A DNA stretch of 20,000 nucleotides from an uncultured virus (IMG/VR IMGVR_UViG_3300031746_000009) (lineage: Duplodnaviria; Heunggongvirae; Uroviricota; Caudoviricetes): IMG/VR virus record IMGVR_UViG_3300031746_000009; one strand, 5' to 3'. This document shows, piece by piece, positions 2,167 to 14,464 of the stretch (positions within the stretch are counted from its first letter, which is position 1; every line of letters begins with the position of its first letter). The notes below the pieces were generated by a model. It did no database searches, had not been told where the DNA came from, and was given only the letters and a program-made list of their open reading frames with translations. Both the position numbers and the translations under genes were made by a program.

Positions 2167-3273
2167 TTACAGTGGGTGTCTTCGGTCTGCCCTGTTCTTT
2201 TCAATGACGCTTTGCTCCCGCATCTTCAAGAGTTCTTTGCTTCTGTCTATGAGTTGTTCAACGGTCTGTTCCGGTTCAGGAGCTGATGGCGGTATTGTGG
2301 GTGGTGGTGTTATAGGTGGAACTGGTATTGTTGGCGTTTCTACTGGTTTAGCGGGTAATGCCGGACTTGCAGGCGGTGTAATCGTTGGTGCTGGCGGAAG
2401 CTCTTTTGTTCCCACATACGCATCCCAATAGTCTTTAGCCTGTTGCTCAGTGTAACCTTCAATCTTACGTTGCTTCACAAACTCTAGGAACTCTTCGGGT
2501 TTTGTTTCACTCAATCCTTTCTTACCTCCTACAACTTTCTTTTCTTGAACTGTCACCCCTGACGCGGCAGCGATAAACCGTCTCACATTTTTTTCGCTTC
2601 CAATCCCACAATTTGGAAAAGTACAACGTCCACGCCAGACCCCGGCAGCTACGTGGTCAATCAACATGTCCCGCATAACCAAATCATAAGGAATTCCATG
2701 CCAAACGCCGGGAGTTGGGTCGGTTGCGTAGTAGAAGCCTATGCTCACGTCTTTGGGTGGTCCAGTCTTTGCGGCTGCTGCTCTGATTTCTTGGAGAAAG
2801 TCTTGCGGGCACTGTTCTTTGTCAAAGTTTAAGATGCCACGAATGCGGTCCCGGTCAAAGAAAGGTTTCTCAACTGTGCCGTACATGTCATGTTGGCTCA
2901 CGATAACCTTTTCTGGGGGATGATCCTTAACGATGATTTTGGCTGCTCGCGCAGTACGTGTGGCATTCAGTAATTCCTGTCTGCTCCATAAACATTGTTT
3001 GTCTTCGCCTTTTGGTCCTGCGGGGAAGGTGTAGACACCTTCCTTGGCGATGACGGCTTGAACTTTGAGGCAGCAGTTACTGTCTTCAACGATTTGCATG
3101 GGTTCCGCAAAGACGGCTAATTGGACAGTTGCGGATGCTGGTGTAGAGTCTCCTTTGAATTTGCTGTGGCAGATGGCGGCACGTTGTTCGGAGTCATATT
3201 TCTGCATGTCTGGGTATGCCATGCAACGTTGCATGAATTGTTCTTCTGTTTCTCCCTCATTAGGTTCGGGCAT
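2167..3273 (-). CDS. DUF2213-like prohead protease/scaffold protein with small N-terminal PxPxxGE..F..RCM domain and Pro-rich C-terminal linker
   Basis: Motifs IAKEGVYTF, DHPP, DVSIGFY, IDHVA and GRC..CGIG; AAGGTGA RBS; located between portal and MCP. Confidence 0.75.
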   Translation of the reverse strand: MPEPNEGETEEQFMQRCMAYPDMQKYDSEQRAAICHSKFKGDSTPASATVQLAVFAEPMQIVEDSNCCLKVQAVIAKEGVYTFPAGPKGEDKQCLWSRQELLNATRTARAAKIIVKDHPPEKVIVSQHDMYGTVEKPFFDRDRIRGILNFDKEQCPQDFLQEIRAAAAKTGPPKDVSIGFYYATDPTPGVWHGIPYDLVMRDMLIDHVAAGVWRGRCTFPNCGIGSEKNVRRFIAAASGVTVQEKKVVGGKKGLSETKPEEFLEFVKQRKIEGYTEQQAKDYWDAYVGTKELPPAPTITPPASPALPAKPVETPTIPVPPITPPPTIPPSAPEPEQTVEQLIDRSKELLKMREQSVIEKNRADRRHPL

Positions 3274-4035: not shown

Positions 4036-4637
4036 CAGTCGGGGAACACGTTGTGAAACTCTAGTTCACTGTGTTGTTGCCTGAATTCGTCTACGGCTTG
4101 GCAGACTTCTAACACTTTGCGGTGAAGATAGTCGTGTCCTCCGATTACTCCGCCCTTTTTCAGTAGCGGATAATAGTTTTCTATGTCCTGTTTCACGTTG
4201 ACGTAGTTGTGGTTTCCGTCTATGTATATGAAGTCTAAAGGTTCAGTTATGTCATCGTGGGCTTCGTTGGATGGTTTTCTGATAAATACTGTTTCGTTGA
4301 AGTTGCCCAGTTTGTCTTTAGCCGTTCTGTCTTTTCCCTGATAGTTTAATTGTCTTCCATGCTCCAAGTATGGAACGTAAGGGTCTATGAGGAACAGTTT
4401 CTTGACTGGCAACTCTTGAGTCATGTTTAAAGCGTTTTCGCCTGCTCCGACACCGATTTCTAAGCCTACAAGGTCGCCTGTTTTGAAATGCTGTTTCAGG
4501 AACATGGTCATTGGTCGGGGGACGCCGCTGATGAGGCTTTCGAGCTCAACCATGTCTTTGTAAAGTTTGGGTGCAAGCAACTTTACTATTGCATGGCGAA
4601 GCCGCATGGTCTTCATTCGCAAGTGCATACGGTTCAC
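4020..4637 (-). CDS. Class I SAM-dependent methyltransferase (Methyltransf_24-like)
   Basis: LEIGVGAGENA motif I, LIDPY, and LDFIYIDGNHNY..VKQDI..YYPLLKKGGVIGGHDY. Confidence 0.9.
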   Translation of the reverse strand: MNRMHLRMKTMRLRHAIVKLLAPKLYKDMVELESLISGVPRPMTMFLKQHFKTGDLVGLEIGVGAGENALNMTQELPVKKLFLIDPYVPYLEHGRQLNYQGKDRTAKDKLGNFNETVFIRKPSNEAHDDITEPLDFIYIDGNHNYVNVKQDIENYYPLLKKGGVIGGHDYLHRKVLEVCQAVDEFRQQHSELEFHNVFPDWWIIK

Positions 4638-5962
4638 TTGTTCAGGTTAGTGTCTGGTTGCCGTTGTTCAGGCGCGTTTCCAGTTGGAAACTTGTTGGGC
4701 GCCCAAGGGTTCTGTGCGGCTTTGCTGAGAAGTTCTTCGCCGCCCTGTTCTTTGGTTAAAGGTTTAAGGGTTGGGTCCATGAGTTTGCGGAGTTCGTTGC
4801 GGGTCATCCAGTCGCCCTTCACCTGCAACGTTTGGGCTTTGACTTGGTCGATTTGGGCTTGTTTAAGGTCATCTAGTTGGAAGCCGCCCATCCATTTGAA
4901 GCTGAACGGCTCGTCTGTTTGCTGTACTGCGTTGATGAGTTGACGGATGCCTGTTTCATAGTAGGTTTCTTCGTCGCCGATAAGTGCGAAATATTCTTGC
5001 TGGTTCACTTCGGAACCTGTGAGTGTTCCCGCTTGCACGCCGCGTAGAATGGCTAGTGGGATTGCGGAGCCTGCGCTGATGTTTTCCATGATGGGCAGAT
5101 AGTATTTGGTGGGGTCTAAAGCTACGCCTGCGGTGCCTTTGAACTCTATGGTTTGGTTCTCGTTGTGCGCGAAATAGGTGCGGGCACTAAGATTCTCGAA
5201 GCTGCCTTCTTCTACCCAGTCGTCGATGTCGCTTTTCTCTGCACCTGTGAAAGTCAAGTCGGGGAAGCCGTGGCCGTAACGGTACATGGTTTGTCCCATG
5301 CCCCACCTGATGTTTCTGAGGGTTACTATGTCGTCCCACACGGGGTCTAGGGTGCTTATTCCCATGTAATCATGTTCTAAGAGTCGTGATGCGAAGTGGA
5401 TTGTTCTTGTGTAGTGGATTTTAAGGTTGCTTGTTATTCCAGACTGTTTAACATTGTAGTATTCTGGGAGGCCGTAGCGTGGATTGCTTCTGTCTTTAAC
5501 TTCGTCTACTGACGCTATTTGTAGTGGCCCATACGCTTTTATTTCCTGTAGTTTCGGAGTGCCTGTGACGGGTTCCGCAAGAGTTTGTGCTGCATCCGCG
5601 TATCCTAAGACGATTGTTGCCCAACCGTAGGCTCTTTCGTAGACGGCCATTCGCATGAGTTCACGTTTTGCGTTGAGGCGTGTGAGTTCCTTCTGGATTT
5701 GCGTGTCAAACGACTTGTCTTGTTCGTTGCCTTCCTTGTAAAGTTGGAACCAGTGGTCGAAGATGTCGTGGGCGACGGTGAAGACGATTCTGTGGGCTAC
5801 GGGTTCGCGTGTGATTGCGAATGTGCGGTCTACGTCTTGGATTTGTGCGCCGAATTCTCCGCCTCCGCCTGTGCCGCCTAAAGGAATGGTTATGGCTGCG
5901 CCTCGTGGGACGGTTGTGCCTGAGGCTAGTCCGATGCGTTTAAGTTCAAAACGGTTGCTCAA
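4634..5962 (-). CDS. Portal protein (DUF1073-like family)
   Basis: 442 aa with RAYGWATIVLG, YGLPEYYNV, IHYTRTIHF, GISTLDPVWDDI, IPLAILRG and MTRNELR; downstream of TerL. Confidence 0.85.
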   Translation of the reverse strand: MSNRFELKRIGLASGTTVPRGAAITIPLGGTGGGGEFGAQIQDVDRTFAITREPVAHRIVFTVAHDIFDHWFQLYKEGNEQDKSFDTQIQKELTRLNAKRELMRMAVYERAYGWATIVLGYADAAQTLAEPVTGTPKLQEIKAYGPLQIASVDEVKDRSNPRYGLPEYYNVKQSGITSNLKIHYTRTIHFASRLLEHDYMGISTLDPVWDDIVTLRNIRWGMGQTMYRYGHGFPDLTFTGAEKSDIDDWVEEGSFENLSARTYFAHNENQTIEFKGTAGVALDPTKYYLPIMENISAGSAIPLAILRGVQAGTLTGSEVNQQEYFALIGDEETYYETGIRQLINAVQQTDEPFSFKWMGGFQLDDLKQAQIDQVKAQTLQVKGDWMTRNELRKLMDPTLKPLTKEQGGEELLSKAAQNPWAPNKFPTGNAPEQRQPDTNLNK

Positions 5963-6464: not shown

Positions 6465-7742
6465 TTATCCTAGTCTCCAAGCGTCTGCGGGTCCACCACT
6501 CTTTTTCAGCTGCCAAAATGCGAGCGCCAACGCAATCACGCAGTCGTCATGGAATCCTTCAGGCGAACTGTAACGCTGGTTTCCGGATGGCGTTTTCGTG
6601 TATCCAAACAGGTCCAGCTCCGTCAAGAGTATGGGAATGTTTGGGTAAGAGATTTCGCCGTTTTCCAATCCTATCACCAAGTTTTCGATTAAGTCTTCTT
6701 TGCTTGGCTGAGTAATCTTGTAGCCTTTCACTTGGACGCCTTCGTGACGCATTTCGTCGAACACTGGGTCGCCTAAACCAGTAGAATCTATCAGTAGGGG
6801 TGCATGATACCGTTTTGCGGTGGCGGCTAACCATTCCCGTTGAAGGTGCCAGTCTCTGATTTGTCTGCGGTCAAACATGCAGACGTGGCCGTCTATGTCC
6901 AAGATGATTAGTACGGTGTAGTCTTGATATTTGGCTAGGTCTGCTCCTGCACGGTAACTCATGTCTTGACTGTAAGGCTCATAATGGGAGTCCAGATAAC
7001 CTTGTAGCGGCATTTGGATGCCTTGGATGTGATCTTTGATGCCTATGAAGACTGCGCCTACGTCGCTTAAGAATTCTCCGTCAAGTTCCTGTTTGCGGGC
7101 TCTTTCACTCATGTTTCGGGCGATAGCGTCAAGGTCTTCTTTATGGATGACTCCGCCCTTTTCAACGGTGTTGTTGGTTGATGGGAAACACCAACTTTTA
7201 AAGTCTTGGTCAAGCGGGTCATATCCTCTCATGCAGAGGAGGTAGTACCAGTTTCGTCCTTTCGGGGTGCCTGTGAACCATGCGCGTCCATGCTTATCCG
7301 CTAGGGCGGGAAGCACAGCGTAATCCCATATTTCCTGGCTCATTCCAGCGGGTTCATCTAGCCAAGCCCAAGTGTAGCCTTCGCCTCGACATGCTTCAGG
7401 GTTTTCTGCGCTACGGAAATGTATCGTCCGATTACCGATTAGCCGAATGTATTGGCTGCCGGGGGTTCTGTGAACCTCTTTGATGACTTGTTGTGGAAGA
7501 TATTCGAGCAAAGTGTTCCAACATTTTCCGAGGCTGCTTGACCCGTAGGATGGTGCTACGACGAGTCCGCTTGCAGACGGCGGGCTAGATAGGGTTGTCT
7601 TGATTGCTTCGTTTGCGCCCCACGTCGTTTTGCCCCAGCGTCTTCCGCAATGCAACATTCGGAACCGTGCAAGGCTCTGGTGAACCAATTGCTGGTCCTG
7701 TCTGTGCTGATAGTTGATTGTTAACTCCATTGTTTTGCTCAT
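6465..7742 (-). CDS. terL: Terminase large subunit (Terminase_6/6C type)
   Basis: Walker A GRRWGKT, Walker B AWLDE, TGTP coupling motif, nuclease motifs GADLA, DSTGLG and HDDCVIALALA. Confidence 0.95.
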   Translation of the reverse strand: MSKTMELTINYQHRQDQQLVHQSLARFRMLHCGRRWGKTTWGANEAIKTTLSSPPSASGLVVAPSYGSSSLGKCWNTLLEYLPQQVIKEVHRTPGSQYIRLIGNRTIHFRSAENPEACRGEGYTWAWLDEPAGMSQEIWDYAVLPALADKHGRAWFTGTPKGRNWYYLLCMRGYDPLDQDFKSWCFPSTNNTVEKGGVIHKEDLDAIARNMSERARKQELDGEFLSDVGAVFIGIKDHIQGIQMPLQGYLDSHYEPYSQDMSYRAGADLAKYQDYTVLIILDIDGHVCMFDRRQIRDWHLQREWLAATAKRYHAPLLIDSTGLGDPVFDEMRHEGVQVKGYKITQPSKEDLIENLVIGLENGEISYPNIPILLTELDLFGYTKTPSGNQRYSSPEGFHDDCVIALALAFWQLKKSGGPADAWRLG

Positions 7743-8960: not shown

Positions 8961-9053
8961 GTATGTTTTGAGTATGGTTTGGGTATGTTTTGGGTATGCT
9001 GTGGTATGCTTGGGTTATGTTTTGGTATGTTTGAAGCATACTGGGTATGTATG
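8961..9053. repeat. Degenerate tandem 10-11 bp repeat with GTATG core (consensus about GGGTATGTTTT)
   Basis: GTATG at 8961, 8972, 8983, 8994, 9004, (GTTATG 9014), 9025, 9045 and 9049. Confidence 0.8.
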
Positions 9054-9371
9054 GTGTGTTGTTACTTACCTGTTAGTCATATCTTATGAGAGTATAGGCT
9101 TGGGATTGTGTTGTTGATTAAGTTTATTGTGTCTTTGTTAGTCGGGTCGTTTCCGGAATCGTTTTGGATTGCTCATTTTGTGTCCTCGTAGTTTCTTGTT
9201 TGATGGTTAAAGTGTAATTGTGAATGTGTTTGTCCATGCGTGGATTCACGTTTTGTGGGGGTCGCTTTTTGTTATGTTGTTTTGATGGATGATTTTTTAC
9301 GGTGCCTGATTTGGGCGTGTATTCACATATGTTGTTATGGTGTGTGTTTAACTGACTGTGTTCACATATTC

Positions 9372-9416
9372 CGATATGTTTATAAGTAGTTATGTGGGTG
9401 TGTGTAGTTAAGGTGA
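9372..9416 (+). promoter_or_regulatory. Archaeal-type promoter (TATA box TTTATAAG) and AGGTGA RBS of the early operon
   Basis: TTTATAAG at 9379-9386, AGGTGA at 9411-9416, ATG at 9423. Confidence 0.6.
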
Positions 9417-9422
9417 AATGGA

Positions 9423-9623
9423 ATGGTTAAGACAATAAGAATCAAAGAAGCAAACAGAATCGTACCTAACTATGAAGACTATCCAAACATAAGCGTTACT
9501 GGTAGCTTGCGGGGAATGCACGACAGGTTTGGCATGGTTCTGAAATACTATGTGCGGATCGGAGGCTTCTACTACTATCTAAGGGGTTATCCAAATATTG
9601 AGCAAATACTAGAGCAGATTTAG
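9423..9623 (+). CDS. Hypothetical protein (PNISVTGS..GM motif)
   Basis: 66 aa, strong RBS, first gene of the operon. Confidence 0.75.
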   Translation: MVKTIRIKEANRIVPNYEDYPNISVTGSLRGMHDRFGMVLKYYVRIGGFYYYLRGYPNIEQILEQI

Positions 9624-9645
9624 AGGCTGTTAAGGAAGTGTGTAT

Positions 9646-9771
9646 ATGAAGTGTCCGAAATGCAACTCGCTATATGTAGAGTTTCTCGACCTCGTACATT
9701 TTCCGAATGATAGGAAATGTAAGTTTTGTGGGTTTGTTTGGGAAGAGGCTGTTAGGGTGGTGAAAACATGA
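9646..9771 (+). CDS. Small Zn-ribbon protein (41 aa)
   Basis: MKCPKCNSLYVEFLDLVHFPNDRKCKFCGFVWEEAVRVVKT; ATGA overlap with the next gene. Confidence 0.75.
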   Translation: MKCPKCNSLYVEFLDLVHFPNDRKCKFCGFVWEEAVRVVKT

Positions 9772-10016
9772 GAAAAGGATCAAAATTCAGGTTGACATCT
9801 GACGCCGAAGAAAACTATAAGGATATTTTGAAAGAGCTGTTCGGTGACAAGTGGAGTGAACGTGTGTTCAGAGTTACGCATGTCGCACATAGTGTTGAGG
9901 AACACAGAGGATATGATGAAGGTGTAGCGCCACAAGGACTTTATGATTTTGAGGATGTAAAGTCTGGCAAAGAGATGTCTGTGTCGGTTTATGATTGGGA
10001 AATTGAAGAGGTTTAG
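9768..10016 (+). CDS. Hypothetical protein
   Basis: 82 aa, GGTGGTGA RBS. Confidence 0.75.
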   Translation: MRKGSKFRLTSDAEENYKDILKELFGDKWSERVFRVTHVAHSVEEHRGYDEGVAPQGLYDFEDVKSGKEMSVSVYDWEIEEV

Positions 10017-10089
10017 AGCGCCCCTGATGATGCTGTGCAACTCAGCGAAACACCACGATTTTTTATGGTGTCGGGTGAAGTGTGAACCT
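10009..10089 (+). ncRNA. Type I hammerhead ribozyme 1 (predicted cleavage after GUC, C10072)
   Basis: Stem I CGCCC(10019-23)/GGGUG(10073-77); core CUGAUGA (10024-30) plus an extra U; stem II GCUG-UGCAACU-CAGC; GAAA (10047-50); stem III CACCA-loop-UGGUG; UC; distal stem I AGGUUU/GAACCU. Confidence 0.9.
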
Positions 10090-10099
10090 AGAAGGTGAT

Positions 10100-10516
10100 A
10101 TGATGAGTACAAGATGTCGAATAGATTTCATTGTGAAGTGGATCGATGAGAATGGGAAAGAACACACCGATATAAGATGTGTTTACAGGCACAGTGATGG
10201 ATACCCAGAAGGTGTCTTGCCCGATCTCACCGAGTTCTTGAAGTGGAACAACGGACGCAACAACGATGTTGAATATACTACGGCGAACTTTATCTATTGG
10301 TCTAAGCGAAACATGGAGAAATACCTCAAGGAAGGCGAGGATTGGAATAGCCCAAACAGTTACGCTAGATTTGGTTTCGGTGTTTGTGATAAAGATTGCT
10401 GGCATGGTGATCTTGAATACTACTATGAAGTTTTCCCTGAAATTGGTGAGGTTAAGGTTTACAAAATGCCAGACAAAACCCCTCTCAAGACGGAAACTTT
10501 GATAATTACCGTTTAA
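10100..10516 (+). CDS. Conserved viral hypothetical protein with MSTR...YxHxDGYP...HGDxEYxY motifs
   Basis: AAGGTGA RBS at 10092-98 favours ATG 10100/10103 over the track's GTG 10082; protein (M)MSTRCRIDF...VYRHSDGYPEG...HGDLEYYYEV. Confidence 0.85.
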   Translation: MMSTRCRIDFIVKWIDENGKEHTDIRCVYRHSDGYPEGVLPDLTEFLKWNNGRNNDVEYTTANFIYWSKRNMEKYLKEGEDWNSPNSYARFGFGVCDKDCWHGDLEYYYEVFPEIGEVKVYKMPDKTPLKTETLIITV

Positions 10517-10585
10517 ACCCTTGAAAAGTCTCTGAGATGGGACGAAACTTAGAGTTTTTTTCTAAGTCGGGTGATGTTGAAATGG
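10509..10585 (+). ncRNA. Type I hammerhead ribozyme 2, U3-A8 core variant (predicted cleavage after GUC, C10568)
   Basis: Stem I ACCC(10517-20)/GGGU(10569-72); core UUGAAAA (10521-27); stem II GUCUC-UGAGAU-GGGAC; GAAA (10544-47); stem III CUUAGA-GUUUUUU-UCUAAG; UC; distal stem I CCGUUU/AAAUGG. Confidence 0.85.
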
Positions 10586-10824
10586 AAAAAGCTAGATGTG
10601 TAGATATGTCCACGTTGCCACGTGTGAAAGAGCAAGAGAACGGAAATGTGTATATGTGGTTTCAAAGTGAAGATATGAGCCACATCATAAGCTTGGGTGA
10701 AGGCGAGATAAGGGTTAAGACACCAACAGACAGATATGTTATCCCTGTTCGCTGCTATCCTAAACTTTCTGAAGCTGAAGTTCGCAGAGCCATAAGAAAC
10801 ACGATTTACGCAAGGCCGAGGTAG
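10582..10824 (+). CDS. Hypothetical protein (80 aa)
   Basis: Start reassigned to ATG 10582 (MEKARCVDM...) with GGTGA RBS at 10570-74; the track's ATG 10537 lies inside ribozyme 2. Confidence 0.7.
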   Translation: MEKARCVDMSTLPRVKEQENGNVYMWFQSEDMSHIISLGEGEIRVKTPTDRYVIPVRCYPKLSEAEVRRAIRNTIYARPR

Positions 10825-10831
10825 ATGTGGA

Positions 10832-10954
10832 ATGGATAGGAAGCAGGTTGAAGACATGTTAAAGGTGGACGAAACCTTTGACTGTTGGCGTGAAGCATAC
10901 CGGAAAGTTTACGGCAAATATCCTAAGGTGAAGCTGGTGGAGGTGGAAACATGA
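10832..10954 (+). CDS. Small hypothetical protein (40 aa)
   Basis: MDRKQVEDMLKVDETFDCWREAYRKVYGKYPKVKLVEVET; GAGGT RBS; ATGA-coupled to the next gene. Confidence 0.6.
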   Translation: MDRKQVEDMLKVDETFDCWREAYRKVYGKYPKVKLVEVET

Positions 10955-11100
10955 CAGACTATGACAATTTTGAGTTAGTGAGTGACGCGGTTAAAGACGT
11001 TGATCGAACTTTGATAAAGCTAGTAGCTATTCAGACAGAGATGGTGAAGCAGTTTGCTGAGGCTGTGCGGGTGCTGAATGAGATTCTTAAAAAATGTTGA
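10951..11100 (+). CDS. Small helical/coiled-coil protein (49 aa)
   Basis: MTDYDNFELVSDAVKDVDRTLIKLVAIQTEMVKQFAEAVRVLNEILKKC; GGAGGTG RBS. Confidence 0.65.
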   Translation: MTDYDNFELVSDAVKDVDRTLIKLVAIQTEMVKQFAEAVRVLNEILKKC

Positions 11101-11113
11101 GGGAGGTGGTTTG

Positions 11114-11257
11114 ATGCCGTTTGAAAAGCTAGATATCTACGCAATCGCTCACGACCTAATAGATAGTGGCCATGCCGAAGAGGGTTACATGCTTGTGCTA
11201 CTTCAGCAAATCCGTGACGAACTTAGGGAAATTCGGAAGCAGGGGGTGAAATCTTGA
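11114..11257 (+). CDS. Small hypothetical protein (47 aa)
   Basis: MPFEKLDIYAIAHDLIDSGHAEEGYMLVLLQQIRDELREIRKQGVKS; GGAGGTG RBS. Confidence 0.65.
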   Translation: MPFEKLDIYAIAHDLIDSGHAEEGYMLVLLQQIRDELREIRKQGVKS

Positions 11258-11388
11258 GTTCTTGGCGAAAGTGTGAAGCGTGTGGTTCAGATGAGCTAGA
11301 AAGGCTAGAGTCACATGACGGTAAAGACATATATGTTTGTTTAGACTGTGAACATACACAGACAGAGGTGAAAACAACACATGAGTGA
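11254..11388 (+). CDS. Small Zn-ribbon protein (TFIIB-ribbon-like, 44 aa)
   Basis: TTG start with GGGGTGA RBS; CEACGS...YVCLDCEH. Confidence 0.65.
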   Translation: MSSWRKCEACGSDELERLESHDGKDIYVCLDCEHTQTEVKTTHE

Positions 11389-11563
11389 TAGCAAGGTAGG
11401 TAAAGATTGGGTCGTATGGACATGTTTAGTTAGCCCAGAATCAGACGAGCTAGTCCGAGCCAAAGCTAGACATAAGGGTGACAAGTCAATTCTTACTGAT
11501 GAAGCATTGAAGCAGACCTATAAGCCTAAAGCCACGTTGCCGGATAATCCGACAACAACTTAA
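11381..11563 (+). CDS. Putative ribbon-helix-helix DNA-binding protein
   Basis: Alternating beta pattern VVWTCLVSPE, then helix, then KGDKSILTDEAL; GAGGTGA RBS. Confidence 0.55.
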   Translation: MSDSKVGKDWVVWTCLVSPESDELVRAKARHKGDKSILTDEALKQTYKPKATLPDNPTTT

Positions 11564-11580
11564 CCCTTTTTCTTTTTATC
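11564..11580 (+). terminator. Oligo-T archaeal-type terminator between convergent operons
   Basis: CCCTTTTTCTTTTTA directly after the last plus-strand gene. Confidence 0.55.
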
Positions 11581-11607
11581 GTTCTTCCGCGTCTTCTTTG
11601 GCAAAGC

Positions 11608-13098: not shown

Positions 13099-13457
13099 AT
13101 GTTCACTTCCAAAGGCTTTAACGGGACACTGGGAAACTTGTCTGAACTGTCAACGAAATGTTGTAAGATGCCTTCCGAATATAGTCGAAACACGTCGTCA
13201 TAATGGTATAGTATTGTGTGGTTTCTTCGGACTCTGCGTCCATTATCATCGTAGTCTGTTGTCAAATGTGAGTAGGCTACGACTTGTTCACGTTCAAACT
13301 TGTTGATGTGTAATCCGTCGGCTGACTCGTTCTTTCCAAGCAGAAAAAGGAAGGAGAGGCTTTTCTCGCTTAACATATGGTCAACGTCGCCAGTTTGCTT
13401 TATTCTTGTGCCTTCACCGTTAAACCAGCCGTAGAGGAACTGGCCTGTTTCGGTCAT
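13095..13457 (-). CDS. GAP1-N-like (GTPase-associated protein 1 N-terminal domain-like) protein
   Basis: QFLYGW..G.G and DDNGR....NHT motifs; ATGA-coupled to the GTPase gene. ORF is solid, family assignment is by eye. Confidence 0.55.
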   Translation of the reverse strand: MTETGQFLYGWFNGEGTRIKQTGDVDHMLSEKSLSFLFLLGKNESADGLHINKFEREQVVAYSHLTTDYDDNGRRVRRNHTILYHYDDVFRLYSEGILQHFVDSSDKFPSVPLKPLEVNM

Positions 13458-14464
13458 GTGGCAAACTCCAAAATCGCGTCTATAAGGTCAGCGTAAGATT
13501 GTTCTGAACAGGCTGGTTTGCGCCAGTCACAGATTTCTTCGCTTTCTTTTGCTCGTATGATTTCGTGTTTTCCATCCCATGTTTTTGGAACATTATTGTC
13601 GCCACGTTCCACTTCCACAAAGGTTGGAAAATACCTTATTTTGGTTTGTGGATGGTCCACTTGATAGCTTTTGATTGCTTGACTCACTGAAGGATAAAAC
13701 GTGTCCATGAACAATGTGAGGTCGTTCTGGTTTGGGTCCATGATGTTGATGCCGCGATGTTCAATATGATATTTCAACTCGTCCCATTTGGTGATGACTA
13801 TAAAGATTGCTTTCAACTGTTTCTTGATTGAGTCTCGGTAATCGAAAATGTCGTTGAGCAATCGGACAAGGTTAACGTCTGGGTCACGGTGAAGGTTCTT
13901 ATCTGATTCTGTTTTGACTTGCGCGTTTTCTGTGCCTCTTCCTATCACAGCTCGGCTCGCATCAGCCACAGCTATGATGCCTTCGCTCTGCTTCAAATAT
14001 TTGTTGACGCTGTTCACAGCCGCGTAAGCTGCAGCGCCTAATGGTCCTACGGCTTTAGCGTATTGGCGAATGTTCATCTGCAACGTTTCGCCTGCCACGT
14101 CACAGACGGGAACTTGAATCTTTTTGAAGCCGCCAAACGGCATACTTGATTTGCGTGCTAACAGTAACCCTGCTTCAACGGCGTGAGAGTCGAATACTTC
14201 TGTTTTTTCTGGAAAATAGCCTGAACGAATATTGCTTATGTCGCCGTAGATGTTGCTGTTACGTTCTAAGATTCTACAGTAGAAGTCTGGCCGTGCGCTG
14301 CTCAAAGTTTGCGTTGTTAACCCTACAAGACCAACGATAGTGCTTTTTCCGCATCCGCTTGGGCCTATCAGGCTGAACCGTGTGTTACACTCATAGAGTT
14401 TGCTGGATAAGTAAGGTTGCTGATCCTGCACTGGTTTGCTGGAAAGAATAGAGGGAAGTCTCAT
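13454..14464 (-). CDS. TRAFAC-class P-loop GTPase (double-GTPase/ternary-system-like)
   Basis: G1 GPSGCGKST, probable G2 FPEKT, G3 DVAGE, G4 ITKWD; GGAG RBS. Confidence 0.85.
   Translation of the reverse strand: MRLPSILSSKPVQDQQPYLSSKLYECNTRFSLIGPSGCGKSTIVGLVGLTTQTLSSARPDFYCRILERNSNIYGDISNIRSGYFPEKTEVFDSHAVEAGLLLARKSSMPFGGFKKIQVPVCDVAGETLQMNIRQYAKAVGPLGAAAYAAVNSVNKYLKQSEGIIAVADASRAVIGRGTENAQVKTESDKNLHRDPDVNLVRLLNDIFDYRDSIKKQLKAIFIVITKWDELKYHIEHRGINIMDPNQNDLTLFMDTFYPSVSQAIKSYQVDHPQTKIRYFPTFVEVERGDNNVPKTWDGKHEIIRAKESEEICDWRKPACSEQSYADLIDAILEFAT

What the first reader, a model, noticed from the sequence alone, without database searches (positions are those of the whole stretch)
10009..10585. 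Two hammerhead ribozymes bracket one gene: a self-excising, potentially circularising 496-nt mRNA in a probable archaeal virus
Seen: complete type I hammerhead folds start right at the stop codons of the 9768-10016 and 10100-10516 genes. Both have a GUC cleavage triplet (after 10072 and 10568), and both 3' products begin GGGUGA. Double cleavage would release 10073-10568 (496 nt) carrying exactly one ORF with its RBS. Established: hammerhead cleavage leaves 5'-OH and 2',3'-cyclic phosphate ends, the substrates of RtcB ligase, which is widespread in archaea; tandem hammerheads generate retrozyme and viroid-like circles. Inference: because both products start GGGU, ligation would rebuild an intact ribozyme 2 across the junction (ACCC/GGGU). 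That would give a reversible protein-coding circular RNA or a separately stabilised mRNA. The two ribozymes differ in sequence but share structure, which argues for selection rather than recent duplication.
Basis: partly seen in the sequence, partly recalled or inferred. Interest (0 to 1): 0.92.

Follow-up and report, generated by a model that had tools for sequence, protein, structure and literature searches.

The report
Two hammerhead ribozymes flanking a viral gene
Two small self-cutting RNA motifs (hammerhead ribozymes) fill the gaps on either side of one small gene in a tailed virus that probably infects archaea; this layout is already known from phages, and the idea that the cut-out message becomes a circle has no support so far.

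Summary
Two type I hammerhead motifs lie at 10019-10077 (HH1) and 10516-10573 (HH2), with GUC cut sites after C10072 and C10568. They fill the only two sizeable gaps in a tightly packed + strand operon. Each starts at the upstream stop codon. Double cleavage would release a 496-nt RNA carrying one gene.

A covariance model built only from 15 non-window viral sequences scores them at 49.3 and 42.7 bits; the next best hit in the window is 10.5 bits. Across 17 aligned sequences the three helices covary strongly. Each motif departs from the strict core once: HH1 has an extra U after A9, and HH2 has U3-A8, a published natural active variant.

The virus is head-tailed. Its portal protein's closest genome relatives are 7 of 7 Bathyarchaeia MAGs, so "probably archaeal" is supported.

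Ribozymes flanking single, non-conserved phage genes were described by Perreault et al. 2011, who looked for circular products and found none. This scan has met the layout before on other DNA. No homologue of the enclosed gene in 130 loci has such a motif next to it.

Circularisation is chemically possible but untested; no RNA data exist.

Verdict: new member of a known kind, most likely mRNA processing.

The parts
9381..9388 (+). TATA-box-like TTTATAAG about 35 nt before the first + strand gene (9423-9623). It is the inferred archaeal promoter of the operon that holds the ribozymes.
   Evidence: Read from the sequence. This is inference only. Sigma-70-like sites are not enriched (4 found against 6.7 expected).
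9768..10016 (+). Upstream small gene (82 aa). Its stop codon UAG 10014-10016 lies in the internal loop of HH1's helix I.
   Evidence: ORF list. Matches phrog_34111, unknown function, E 2.6e-9.
10009..10089 (+). HH1, a type I hammerhead. The modelled core is 10019-10077, and a distal helix I stem pairs 10009-10015 with 10083-10089. The core is CUGAUGA plus an extra U at 10031.
   Evidence: folds; descriptor and shuffles; R2 49.3 bits, E 8.7e-13.
10072..10073 (+). Predicted HH1 cleavage site (GUC|G), between C10072 and G10073.
   Evidence: Position of C17 in the fold and in the model alignment. Cleavage itself was not tested.
10094..10099 (+). Shine-Dalgarno-like GGUGAU of the enclosed gene.
   Evidence: Sequence. 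Homologues begin MSTRC, which places the start at AUG 10103.
10103..10516 (+). Enclosed gene (137 aa from AUG 10103; an in-frame AUG also lies at 10100). It belongs to a widespread phage family of unknown function with an invariant Y-x-H-S-D-G-Y-P-E motif.
   Evidence: relatives; alignment; model pLDDT 89; no solved fold match; no family.
10509..10585 (+). HH2, a type I hammerhead. The modelled core is 10516-10573, and a distal helix I stem pairs 10509-10514 with 10580-10585. The core is UUGAAAA (U3-A8 variant).
   Evidence: R2 42.7 bits, E 7.9e-11. U3-A8 is a natural covariation according to PMC3088659.
10568..10569 (+). Predicted HH2 cleavage site (GUC|G), between C10568 and G10569.
   Evidence: Cleavage itself was not tested.
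10570..10575 (+). GGUGAU, the Shine-Dalgarno-like site of the next gene. It overlaps the 3' strand of HH2's helix I.
   Evidence: Sequence and fold.
10582..10824 (+). Downstream small gene (80 aa from AUG 10582). The AUG is paired in the distal helix I stem of HH2.
   Evidence: ORF 10537-10824 in the same frame, fold. Only one weak relative found.
11567..11577 (+). Two T5 runs directly after the last gene of the operon (11381-11563). This is the inferred oligo-T terminator.
   Evidence: Inference; that archaeal RNA polymerase terminates at oligo-T is recalled, not tested.

Best explanation
HH1 and HH2 are functional type I hammerhead ribozymes. They belong to the class that punctuates operons of small genes in phages and archaeal viruses.

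Proposed mechanism:
- The + strand operon (about 9410 to 11577) is transcribed as one RNA.
- Each ribozyme folds as soon as it leaves the polymerase and cuts itself after C10072 and C10568.
- This turns the polycistronic RNA into separate messages.
- Each upstream piece ends just after its stop codon. It carries the compact ribozyme fold and a 2',3'-cyclic phosphate.
- Each downstream piece begins with a 5'-hydroxyl GGGUGA and a short leader holding its ribosome-binding site.
- The 496-nt middle piece is a single-gene mRNA.
- The likely effect is that neighbouring genes get separate stability and translation. For HH2, the cut would also free the ribosome-binding site and start codon of gene 10582 from helix I.

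What is shown: the motifs, their placement, and covariation across the class. What is inferred: co-transcription, cleavage in vivo, and the effect on stability and translation.
For: - Both minimum-energy folds are the hammerhead junction.
- All core nucleotides are present apart from one documented kind of variation each (PMC3088659 section 8).
- Model R2, built from 15 non-window sequences, scores 49.3 and 42.7 bits against 10.5 for the next hit in the window.
- In the 17-sequence alignment, 98.7% of cells pair and 12 of 14 pairs change on both sides. No shuffle of 500 reaches this, and slid controls pair at 33-40%.
- The two motifs fill the only gaps over 60 nt in a run of overlapping or abutting + strand genes.
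- Of 13 non-window hammerheads of the class, 10 start within 10 nt of a stop codon that closes an open frame of 40 or more codons.
- Locus L178 shows hammerhead-gene-pistol-gene-pistol-gene-hammerhead.
- The literature describes the same layout. It proposes processing of long phage transcripts into single-gene mRNAs (PMC3088659 passages; PMC6155905 and PMC6765202 passages).
Against: - No cleavage or transcript data exist for this DNA.
- Neither motif meets the strict consensus. HH1 has an extra U between A9 and G10.1. The only precedent I know is a viroid hammerhead paper whose title I saw in reference lists; its kinetic details are recalled, not read. HH2 has U3-A8.
- Rfam gives no hit at gathering score.
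- My descriptor was written after seeing the motifs.
- R2 is not fully independent. Nine of its 15 training sequences were found with a pattern derived from the window, and they were aligned with a model that included the window. Two of its rows (L176 1692-1745 and L057) look degenerate.
- A ribosome stopping at the upstream stop codon would cover helix I and the core, so folding must compete with translation.
- The function of phage hammerheads is still unproven in the literature.
Confidence: 0.62

Rival explanations
1. After double cleavage, the 496-nt RNA is closed into a protein-coding circle. The ligation would be done by host RtcB or by HH2 running in reverse, with the 5' GGGU docking on ACCC 10517-10520.
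For: - Hammerhead ends are RtcB substrates (established chemistry; PMC6765202 passages on viroid circularisation).
- RtcB is found in 4 of 5 Bathyarchaeia MAGs that carry related portal genes.
- Both 3' products start GGGU, so a 4-bp helix I can form across the junction.
- In a circle, the HH2-rebuilding fold lies only 1.1 kcal/mol above the optimum.
Against: - There are no RNA data.
- Perreault et al. 2011 looked for circular or spliced products of clustered phage hammerheads and detected none (data not shown in that paper).
- In the linear excised RNA's minimum-energy fold, the 5' GGGU pairs inside the ORF (10467-10470), not with ACCC.
- The distal helix I stem of HH2 cannot form with the HH1-derived end.
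- A rebuilt hammerhead would cut the circle again.
- In the one other hammerhead pair examined (L179), the cross pairing has a central mismatch (rows).
- There are no long terminal repeats or rod-like features as in retrozymes or viroids.
Confidence: 0.06
2. The hammerheads act mainly at the DNA level. They would be conserved borders at which small gene cassettes are swapped between related viruses by recombination, with RNA cleavage secondary.
For: - Contigs of four other sediment runs (four studies, same habitat and years) laid on 9200-11600 show joints at hammerhead borders:
  - 10051 to 10543 in X3, X4 and X5
  - 10079 to 10517 in X4
  - 10082 to 10824 in X3
  - 10577 to 10824 in X2
  - 9765 to 10023 in X3
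  - 9772 to 10017 in X5
  - 9650 to 10014 in X4
- A 792-nt X5 contig matches 10543-10853 with 31 differences, so a roughly 90% relative of the downstream gene is preceded by the 3' half of an HH2-like motif.
- The closest homologue of the enclosed gene (L091, 67% identity) has no ribozyme beside it.
Against: - The tool warns that joints with sides under 30 letters at likeness below 95 often come from other organisms or repeats. The sides here are 21-38 letters at a likeness setting of 80.
- Whether other letters lie between the two sides is not known.
- Helix covariation across the class shows selection on RNA structure, which a pure DNA role does not explain.
Confidence: 0.15
3. Translational switch. 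HH2 (not HH1) holds the next gene's ribosome-binding site and start codon inside helix I, so gene 10582 is translated only after the cut. Cleavage would be a timing or dosage control.
For: - GGUGAU 10570-10575 overlaps helix I (GGGU 10569-10572).
- AUG 10582-10584 pairs in the distal stem 10509-10514 with 10580-10585.
- L214 shows the same close spacing, GUC|GGGUAAAAUU-AUG.
Against: - For HH1, the ribosome-binding site (10094-10099) and start codon (10103) lie outside the fold, so this is not general.
- The distal stem is predicted by energy alone, with z about -1.9. It was not tested for conservation.
Confidence: 0.12
4. Decayed or inactive copies. One or both motifs are relics that no longer cut, or cut too slowly to matter.
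For: - Each motif has one departure from the strict core.
- Degenerate copies exist in the class, for example L176 1692-1745.
- Perreault et al. note that some clustered hammerheads may not be functional.
Against: - All other core positions and all three helices are intact in both.
- U3-A8 is a compensated pair reported as active.
- The helices of HH1 and HH2 differ through paired changes.
- Both sit exactly between a stop codon and a ribosome-binding site.
Confidence: 0.08

Closest known systems
Clustered hammerhead ribozymes flanking single genes or short gene blocks in prophages and phages (Perreault et al. 2011, PLoS Comput Biol, PMC3088659; reviewed in PMC6155905)
   Same: - Several ribozymes lie in the same orientation as the genes.
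- They sit in intergenic gaps of viral operons.
- The flanked genes are small and not conserved.
- The U3-A8 core covariation occurs.
- The proposed role is cutting long transcripts into single-gene mRNAs.
- The circle idea was already raised and tested there without result.
   Different: - The published clusters are described mostly for bacterial prophages, where type II forms are common.
- Here both motifs are type I, and the virus is linked to Bathyarchaeia.
- HH1 has an extra U after A9.
HHphage variant hammerhead of haloarchaeal viruses HF1/HF2 (Perreault et al. 2011, discussion passages)
   Same: - A hammerhead in a tailed archaeal virus.
- It sits a few nucleotides (13) upstream of a start codon in the early region.
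- A mapped transcript 5' end lies near the cut site.
   Different: - HHphage is a structurally unusual, high-salt variant that occurs singly.
- The motifs here are near-canonical, paired around one gene, and come from a sediment virus unrelated to haloviruses (TerL 30.6% identity to Halorubrum phage Hardycor1).
Retrozymes and viroid-like circular RNAs with hammerheads (Cervera et al. 2016; described in PMC6155905 and PMC6765202 passages)
   Same: Two hammerheads in direct orientation would release a unit-length RNA whose ends a tRNA ligase can join.
   Different: - Those elements are non-coding or lack ordinary mRNA features.
- They carry the ribozymes in long direct repeats and are proven to form circles.
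- Here the unit is an ordinary gene with a ribosome-binding site.
- The two ribozymes share only 32 of 59 aligned columns.
- No circle has been seen.
Mixed ribozyme arrays (hammerhead with pistol, twister and others) next to small phage genes (Weinberg et al. 2015, cited as ref. 20 in PMC6155905; its content is recalled)
   Same: Locus L178 of the same hammerhead class alternates hammerhead and pistol ribozymes between single genes.
   Different: The window holds hammerheads only. No other Rfam ribozyme was found at gathering score.

Membership tests
Hammerhead ribozyme (type I) | Three helices around a junction, with helix I open and helices II and III closed by loops | tested here: met
   The minimum-energy and centroid folds of both stretches give exactly this. 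The model alignment agrees.
Hammerhead ribozyme (type I) | Conserved core: C3 U4 G5 A6 N7 G8 A9, G12 A13 A14, A15.1-U16.1, H17 | tested here: inconclusive
   HH1 has every core base but an extra U (10031) between A9 and G10.1. HH2 has U3 and A8 in place of C3 and G8, a compensated natural variant (PMC3088659). All other positions match. Neither would pass the strict filter described in that paper's methods.
Hammerhead ribozyme (type I) | NUH cleavage triplet followed by helix I | tested here: met
   GUC at 10070-10072 and 10566-10568, each followed by GGGU that pairs with the 5' strand.
Hammerhead ribozyme (type I) | Helices supported by covariation among relatives | tested here: met
   Alignment A4, 17 sequences: 98.7% paired, 12 of 14 pairs with double changes, 0 of 500 shuffles as high, slid controls 33-40%. 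The alignment was fitted to the model.
Hammerhead ribozyme (type I) | Rfam Hammerhead_1 (RF00163) gathering score | tested here: not met
   No hit at gathering score and none at E up to 10 for RF00163. Canonical relatives also fail: the model gives only 21.8 bits on one (L172) of the nine pattern-matched hammerheads and 29 bits on a second hammerhead in L179, all below the 34-bit cut-off. The test is therefore insensitive for this class.
Hammerhead ribozyme (type I) | Self-cleavage giving 2',3'-cyclic phosphate and 5'-OH ends | not testable with these tools
   No RNA run holds this DNA. A bench assay is needed.
Clustered phage ribozymes flanking genes (Perreault 2011) | Two or more ribozymes in the gene orientation, in intergenic gaps of a viral genome | tested here: met
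   Both lie on the + strand between + strand genes. The virus encodes terminase, portal, protease and capsid genes.
Clustered phage ribozymes flanking genes (Perreault 2011) | Identity of the flanked genes is not conserved | tested here: met
   None of 130 loci with a homologue of the enclosed gene has a hammerhead of this class next to that gene. The only hits (L001, L035) lie about 2.5 kb upstream. L091 has none.
Retrozyme / viroid-like circular RNA | Circular RNA form detected | not testable with these tools
   No RNA holder is listed.
Retrozyme / viroid-like circular RNA | Ribozymes lie in long direct repeats at both ends of a non-coding unit | tested here: not met
   The two motifs share 32 of 59 aligned columns and nothing beyond the ribozyme. 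The unit is a protein-coding gene.

The most novel reading that the evidence does not exclude
In an archaeal host rich in RtcB, the hammerhead-released 496-nt message is closed into a translatable circular mRNA. Closure could be by RtcB, or by HH2 working in reverse on the matching GGGU end. This would give a viral gene a nuclease-resistant, reversible circular form. It would be the first natural protein-coding ribozyme-made circle in a DNA virus of prokaryotes.
Probability: 0.06. Interest if true: 0.85.

Novelty: new member of a known kind. Interest (0 to 1): 0.3.

Why it matters
The biological role of the many hammerheads in phage genomes is still open (PMC6765202).

This example adds three things:
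- It is a clean case with single-gene resolution, from stop codon through ribozyme to ribosome-binding site.
- It comes from a virus linked to Bathyarchaeia, an uncultured archaeal group.
- It carries two natural core variants that could be tested side by side.

In the library I searched, the only hammerhead reported for an archaeal virus is the unusual HF1/HF2 variant (searches; paywalled papers are not covered). The case therefore modestly extends the known range of canonical hammerheads.

It does not change what is known about how such ribozymes work.

Tried and rejected
- **Whole genome.** None is held for the window.
- **Expression.** No RNA holder is listed among the 12 runs that hold the DNA, so expression, transcript ends and junction reads could not be examined.
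- **Depth in the laid contigs.** Depth is higher over the two ribozyme bins than over the neighbouring genes. The tool states that contig depth cannot rank parts of a stretch, so I do not use it.
- **Neighbouring genes.** Relatives in viral contigs: one weak 16-residue match for 10582-10824 and none for 9768-10016. The other operon ORFs have no match in any fetched locus.
- **Terminase relatives.** The 40 TerL-related viral loci (448 kb) hold no descriptor hit. With model R1 they give only one weak, non-hammerhead hit, L057.
- **Bathyarchaeia MAGs.** Model R2 finds nothing in five of them. The tool notes that an empty answer shows nothing.
- **Pattern in prokaryote genomes.** It gave 37 loci, of which only 4 are supported by R2 at E 0.01 or better (L222, L214, L229, L216). 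I take the other 33 to be chance matches.
- **Host from the terminase.** Not informative: Alicyclobacillus 38%, Haloarcula 31%, Halorubrum phage Hardycor1 30.6%. The protein atlas gave only "viruses".
- **Function of the enclosed protein.**
  - No Pfam, PHROG or NCBIfam family.
  - PDB sequence hits are only chance-level matches to cytochrome c, E 0.006.
  - Foldseek gives no hit at E 0.001 or better.
  - VIA-align gives a best Z of 4.0.
- **Earlier scan notes.** There are none on this genome.
- **Metagenome scan.** It kept the best 80 of 347 relatives, so the other 267 were not inspected for ribozymes.
Full report
**What is in the sequence**

Between 10009 and 10585 on the + strand lie two stretches that read as type I hammerhead ribozymes.

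HH1:
- Helix I is CGCCC (10019-10023) paired with GGGUG (10073-10077).
- The core is CUGAUGA (10024-10030), followed by one extra U (10031).
- Helix II is GCUG/CAGC with a 7-nt loop, followed by GAAA (10047-10050).
- Helix III has 6 bp with a loop containing U6.
- The triplet GUC ends at C10072.

HH2:
- Helix I is ACCC (10517-10520) paired with GGGU (10569-10572).
- The core is UUGAAAA (10521-10527).
- Helix II is GUCUC/GGGAC with a 6-nt loop, followed by GAAA.
- Helix III has 8 bp with a U-rich loop.
- The triplet GUC ends at C10568.

- Both 3' products begin GGGUGA, and 10073-10568 is 496 nt.
- The minimum-energy and centroid folds of both stretches are exactly this three-way junction.
- With more flank, helix I gains a distal stem across an asymmetric internal loop: 10009-10015 with 10083-10089 in HH1, and 10509-10514 with 10580-10585 in HH2.
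- The upstream stop codons (UAG 10014-10016, UAA 10514-10516) lie inside these extended helices.
- In HH2 the distal stem pairs the AUG at 10582-10584, and the proximal stem overlaps GGUGAU at 10570-10575.

**Is it more than chance?**

- A descriptor that I wrote after seeing the motifs finds exactly these two sites in the 20 kb, both strands. It requires a core with C3-G8 or U3-A8, allows an optional one-base insertion, and needs three helices and UH.
- Dinucleotide shuffles give 0.03 sites each. Nine of 300 shuffles have one site and none has two.
- The same descriptor gives 0 sites in 448 kb of terminase-related loci, 0 in 246 kb of metagenome loci and 3 in 286 kb of viral loci.
- Rfam gives nothing at gathering score in the window. 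In E-value mode it gives only weak partial matches on HH2 (Hammerhead_3 17.7 bits, E 0.77; RAGATH-1 hammerhead 16.8 bits, E 5.3) and nothing on HH1.
- This negative carries little weight. On nine loci with clean canonical relatives, Rfam's type I model gives only 21.8 bits on one of them (L172) and 29 bits on a second hammerhead in L179. Both are below its cut-off of 34.

**Relatives of the ribozymes**

A degenerate pattern taken from features shared by HH1 and HH2 matched nine viral contigs. All nine are tidy type I hammerheads with canonical cores.

I built two covariance models:
- A first model from these plus the window found further copies close by: L179 1846-1896, L178 2524-2583 and a degenerate one at L176 1692-1745. 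It also found L001 470-526 and L035 413-460.
- A second model, R2, was built only from 15 non-window sequences. It scores HH1 at 49.3 bits (E 8.7e-13) and HH2 at 42.7 bits (E 7.9e-11). The next best site in the window scores 10.5 bits.

R2 is not fully independent, for three reasons:
- Nine of its training sequences were found with a window-derived pattern.
- The training alignment was made with a model that included the window.
- Two rows (L176 1692-1745 and L057) look degenerate or are not hammerheads.

On the 17-sequence alignment:
- 98.7% of cells form standard pairs.
- 12 of 14 pairs change on both sides.
- No shuffle of 500 reaches any of the five measures.
- Sliding the partners drops pairing to 33-40%.

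HH1 and HH2 share 32 of 59 aligned columns. Three helix III pairs differ on both sides yet still pair.

**Core variants**

Neither motif matches the strict consensus.

HH2 carries U3 and A8. Perreault et al. 2011 report that C3 and G8 pair, that they covary to U3-A8 in several natural hammerheads, and that such variants were already known to be active in vitro (PMC3088659, section 8 read in full).

HH1 has an extra U between A9 and G10.1. Without it, helix II cannot be drawn. I know of one natural precedent for an extra nucleotide in this part of the core, a viroid hammerhead (De la Peña and Flores 2001). I saw only its title in reference lists; what it says on activity is recalled. Whether HH1 cuts well is therefore open.

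**Setting**

The window is part of a head-tailed virus. On the minus strand it encodes a large terminase (6465-7742), portal (4634-5962), head protease (2167-3273) and an HK97/encapsulin-like capsid protein (3-911).

The ribozymes lie in a run of small + strand genes from 9423 to 11563 that overlap or abut. The gaps 10017-10099 and 10517-10581 are the only sizeable ones, and the ribozymes fill them.

Signals read from the sequence:
- A TATA-like TTTATAAG lies at 9381-9388, upstream of the first gene.
- Two T5 runs at 11567-11577 follow the last gene.
- Between about 9400 and 11565, the only T runs of five or more are the two in the helix III loops.

Reading these as archaeal promoter and terminator signals is inference.

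**Host**

- Terminase relatives are uninformative.
- The portal protein's relatives in one-genome-per-species prokaryote contigs are 7 of 7 Bathyarchaeia or Bathyarchaeota MAGs, at 41-52% identity and E 2e-91 to 2e-121.
- A hammerhead of the same class sits in another Bathyarchaeia MAG contig (L214, 42.8 bits). It starts 2 nt after the stop of a 282-aa ORF, and an AUG lies 10 nt beyond its cleavage site.
- A weaker hit lies in a Thermoplasmata MAG (L229, 20.1 bits).

This supports "probable archaeal virus". MAG binning can misplace viral contigs, so it is not proof.

**The enclosed gene**

Its homologues begin MSTRC, which places the start at AUG 10103, 3 nt after GGUGAU 10094-10099.

The family is common in viral and metagenome contigs: 50 and 347 relatives, of which the best 80 of the 347 were kept. 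It has an invariant Y-x-H-S-D-G-Y-P-E motif.

No function could be assigned:
- It matches no Pfam, PHROG or NCBIfam family.
- A confident model (pLDDT 89) has no convincing solved relative. Foldseek gives no E of 0.001 or better, and VIA-align gives a best Z of 4.0.

They are not.
- In 130 loci, no hammerhead of this class lies next to the homologue.
- L001 and L035 have one about 2.5 kb upstream.
- L007 has a type II hammerhead about 2.8 kb upstream. Rfam at gathering score was run on only 20 of the 50 viral loci.
- In the closest relative (L091, 67% identity), the gene abuts its neighbours with no room for a ribozyme.

**What is known already**

Perreault et al. 2011 state the following (passages):
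- The identities of those genes are not constant.
- This implies processing of long phage transcripts into operon-length or single-gene mRNAs.
- Successive cleavage and ligation could give spliced or circular RNAs, but they could not detect either.

A 2017 review repeats that hammerheads flank small non-conserved ORFs and are persistently tied to phages (PMC6155905, passages). A 2019 review says the purpose is still undefined (PMC6765202, passages).

The same layout appears in my own loci. L178 reads gene-hammerhead-gene-pistol-gene-pistol-gene-hammerhead. Of 13 non-window hammerheads, 10 begin within 10 nt of a stop codon that closes an open frame of 40 or more codons.

Earlier notes of this scan record the same arrangement on other phages. 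One is a near-identical claim, judged "a known arrangement". I did not test those notes.

**Mechanism**

The best-supported reading is co-transcriptional self-cleavage that separates the operon into single-gene messages.
- The upstream piece keeps the ribozyme fold and a cyclic phosphate just after its stop codon.
- The downstream piece starts with a 5'-hydroxyl and a short leader.
- For HH2, the cut would also free the ribosome-binding site and start codon of gene 10582. For HH1 it would not, since that site lies outside the fold.

A ribosome paused at the upstream stop codon would cover helix I and the core. Folding and translation must therefore compete. This is inference.

**Circularisation**

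It is chemically possible. The ends are those RtcB joins, and RtcB is present in 4 of 5 related Bathyarchaeia MAGs.

The fold calculations give it no support:
- In the excised RNA's minimum-energy fold, the 5' GGGU pairs at 10467-10470 rather than with ACCC 10517-10520.
- In a circle, the HH2-rebuilding fold is 1.1 kcal/mol above the optimum.
- The distal helix I stem cannot form with the HH1-derived end.

No RNA run holds this DNA, so nothing could be tested.

**A side observation**

I laid contigs of four other sediment runs on 9200-11600. They show joints whose ends fall at the ribozyme borders, for example:
- 10051 to 10543 in three runs
- 10079 to 10517
- 10082 to 10824
- 10577 to 10824
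- 9765 to 10023

A 792-nt contig matches 10543-10853 at about 90% identity. This hints that related viruses carry similar ribozymes next to different genes.

The matched sides are short (21-38 letters at a likeness setting of 80), and the tool warns that such joints often come from other organisms or repeats. It is a weak hint only.

**Verdict**

The circular-mRNA part remains unsupported speculation that has been raised in print before. This is a new member of a known kind. Its modest interest lies in the Bathyarchaeia link and the two natural core variants.

Noticed in passing
window 10103-10516: The enclosed protein belongs to a widespread phage family that starts MSTRC and has an invariant Y-x-H-S-D-G-Y-P-E motif. 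It has no Pfam, PHROG or NCBIfam match. A confident predicted fold (pLDDT 89) has no solved relative (best Z 4.0).
   Followed up: partly
window 8961-9032: About 6.7 tandem copies of an 11-nt unit (GTATGTTTTGG; also read as a 21-nt unit, 3.4 copies). They lie in the gene-free stretch between the diverging structural and small-gene modules. They may be iterons or regulator sites.
   Followed up: no
window 10059-10064 and 10555-10561: Between about 9400 and 11565 on the + strand, the only T runs of five or more are the U6 and U7 stretches in the helix III loops of the two ribozymes. Four of the nine pattern-matched relatives (L171, L173, L175, L176) also have U-rich helix III loops. In an archaeal host, oligo-T can stop transcription (recalled), so each ribozyme may also hold a weak terminator.
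   Followed up: no
L178 1499-2583: A viral contig alternates ribozymes and single small genes: hammerhead 1499-1553, pistol 1844-1909, pistol 2244-2312, hammerhead 2524-2583. ORFs of 85, 103 and 65 aa lie between them.
   Followed up: partly
L214 1199-1260: A canonical type I hammerhead in a contig of a Bathyarchaeia MAG. It starts 2 nt after the stop of a 282-aa ORF, and the next AUG lies 10 nt beyond its cleavage site.
   Followed up: partly
window 9200-11600 against runs X2-X5: Contigs from four other sediment runs join across genes at the ribozyme borders, for example 10051 to 10543 in three runs. This suggests gene cassettes differ between related viruses while the ribozymes stay. The matched sides are short, so the hint is weak.
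   Followed up: partly
L171-L179: Rfam's type I hammerhead model (RF00163) stays below its gathering score on all of these clean phage hammerheads. Standard Rfam annotation therefore misses this class.
   Followed up: partly
L176 1692-1745: About 135 nt downstream of an intact hammerhead lies a copy with a broken core (no CUGANGA, GAUGC in place of GAAAC, GCA at the cut site). It looks like a decayed ribozyme.
   Followed up: no
window 13454-14464 (minus strand): A 336-aa protein with a P-loop-like GPSGCGKS motif. It has only marginal matches to ABC-type ATPase models (E 0.006 and weaker, far below their cut-offs) and no Pfam or PHROG family.
   Followed up: no
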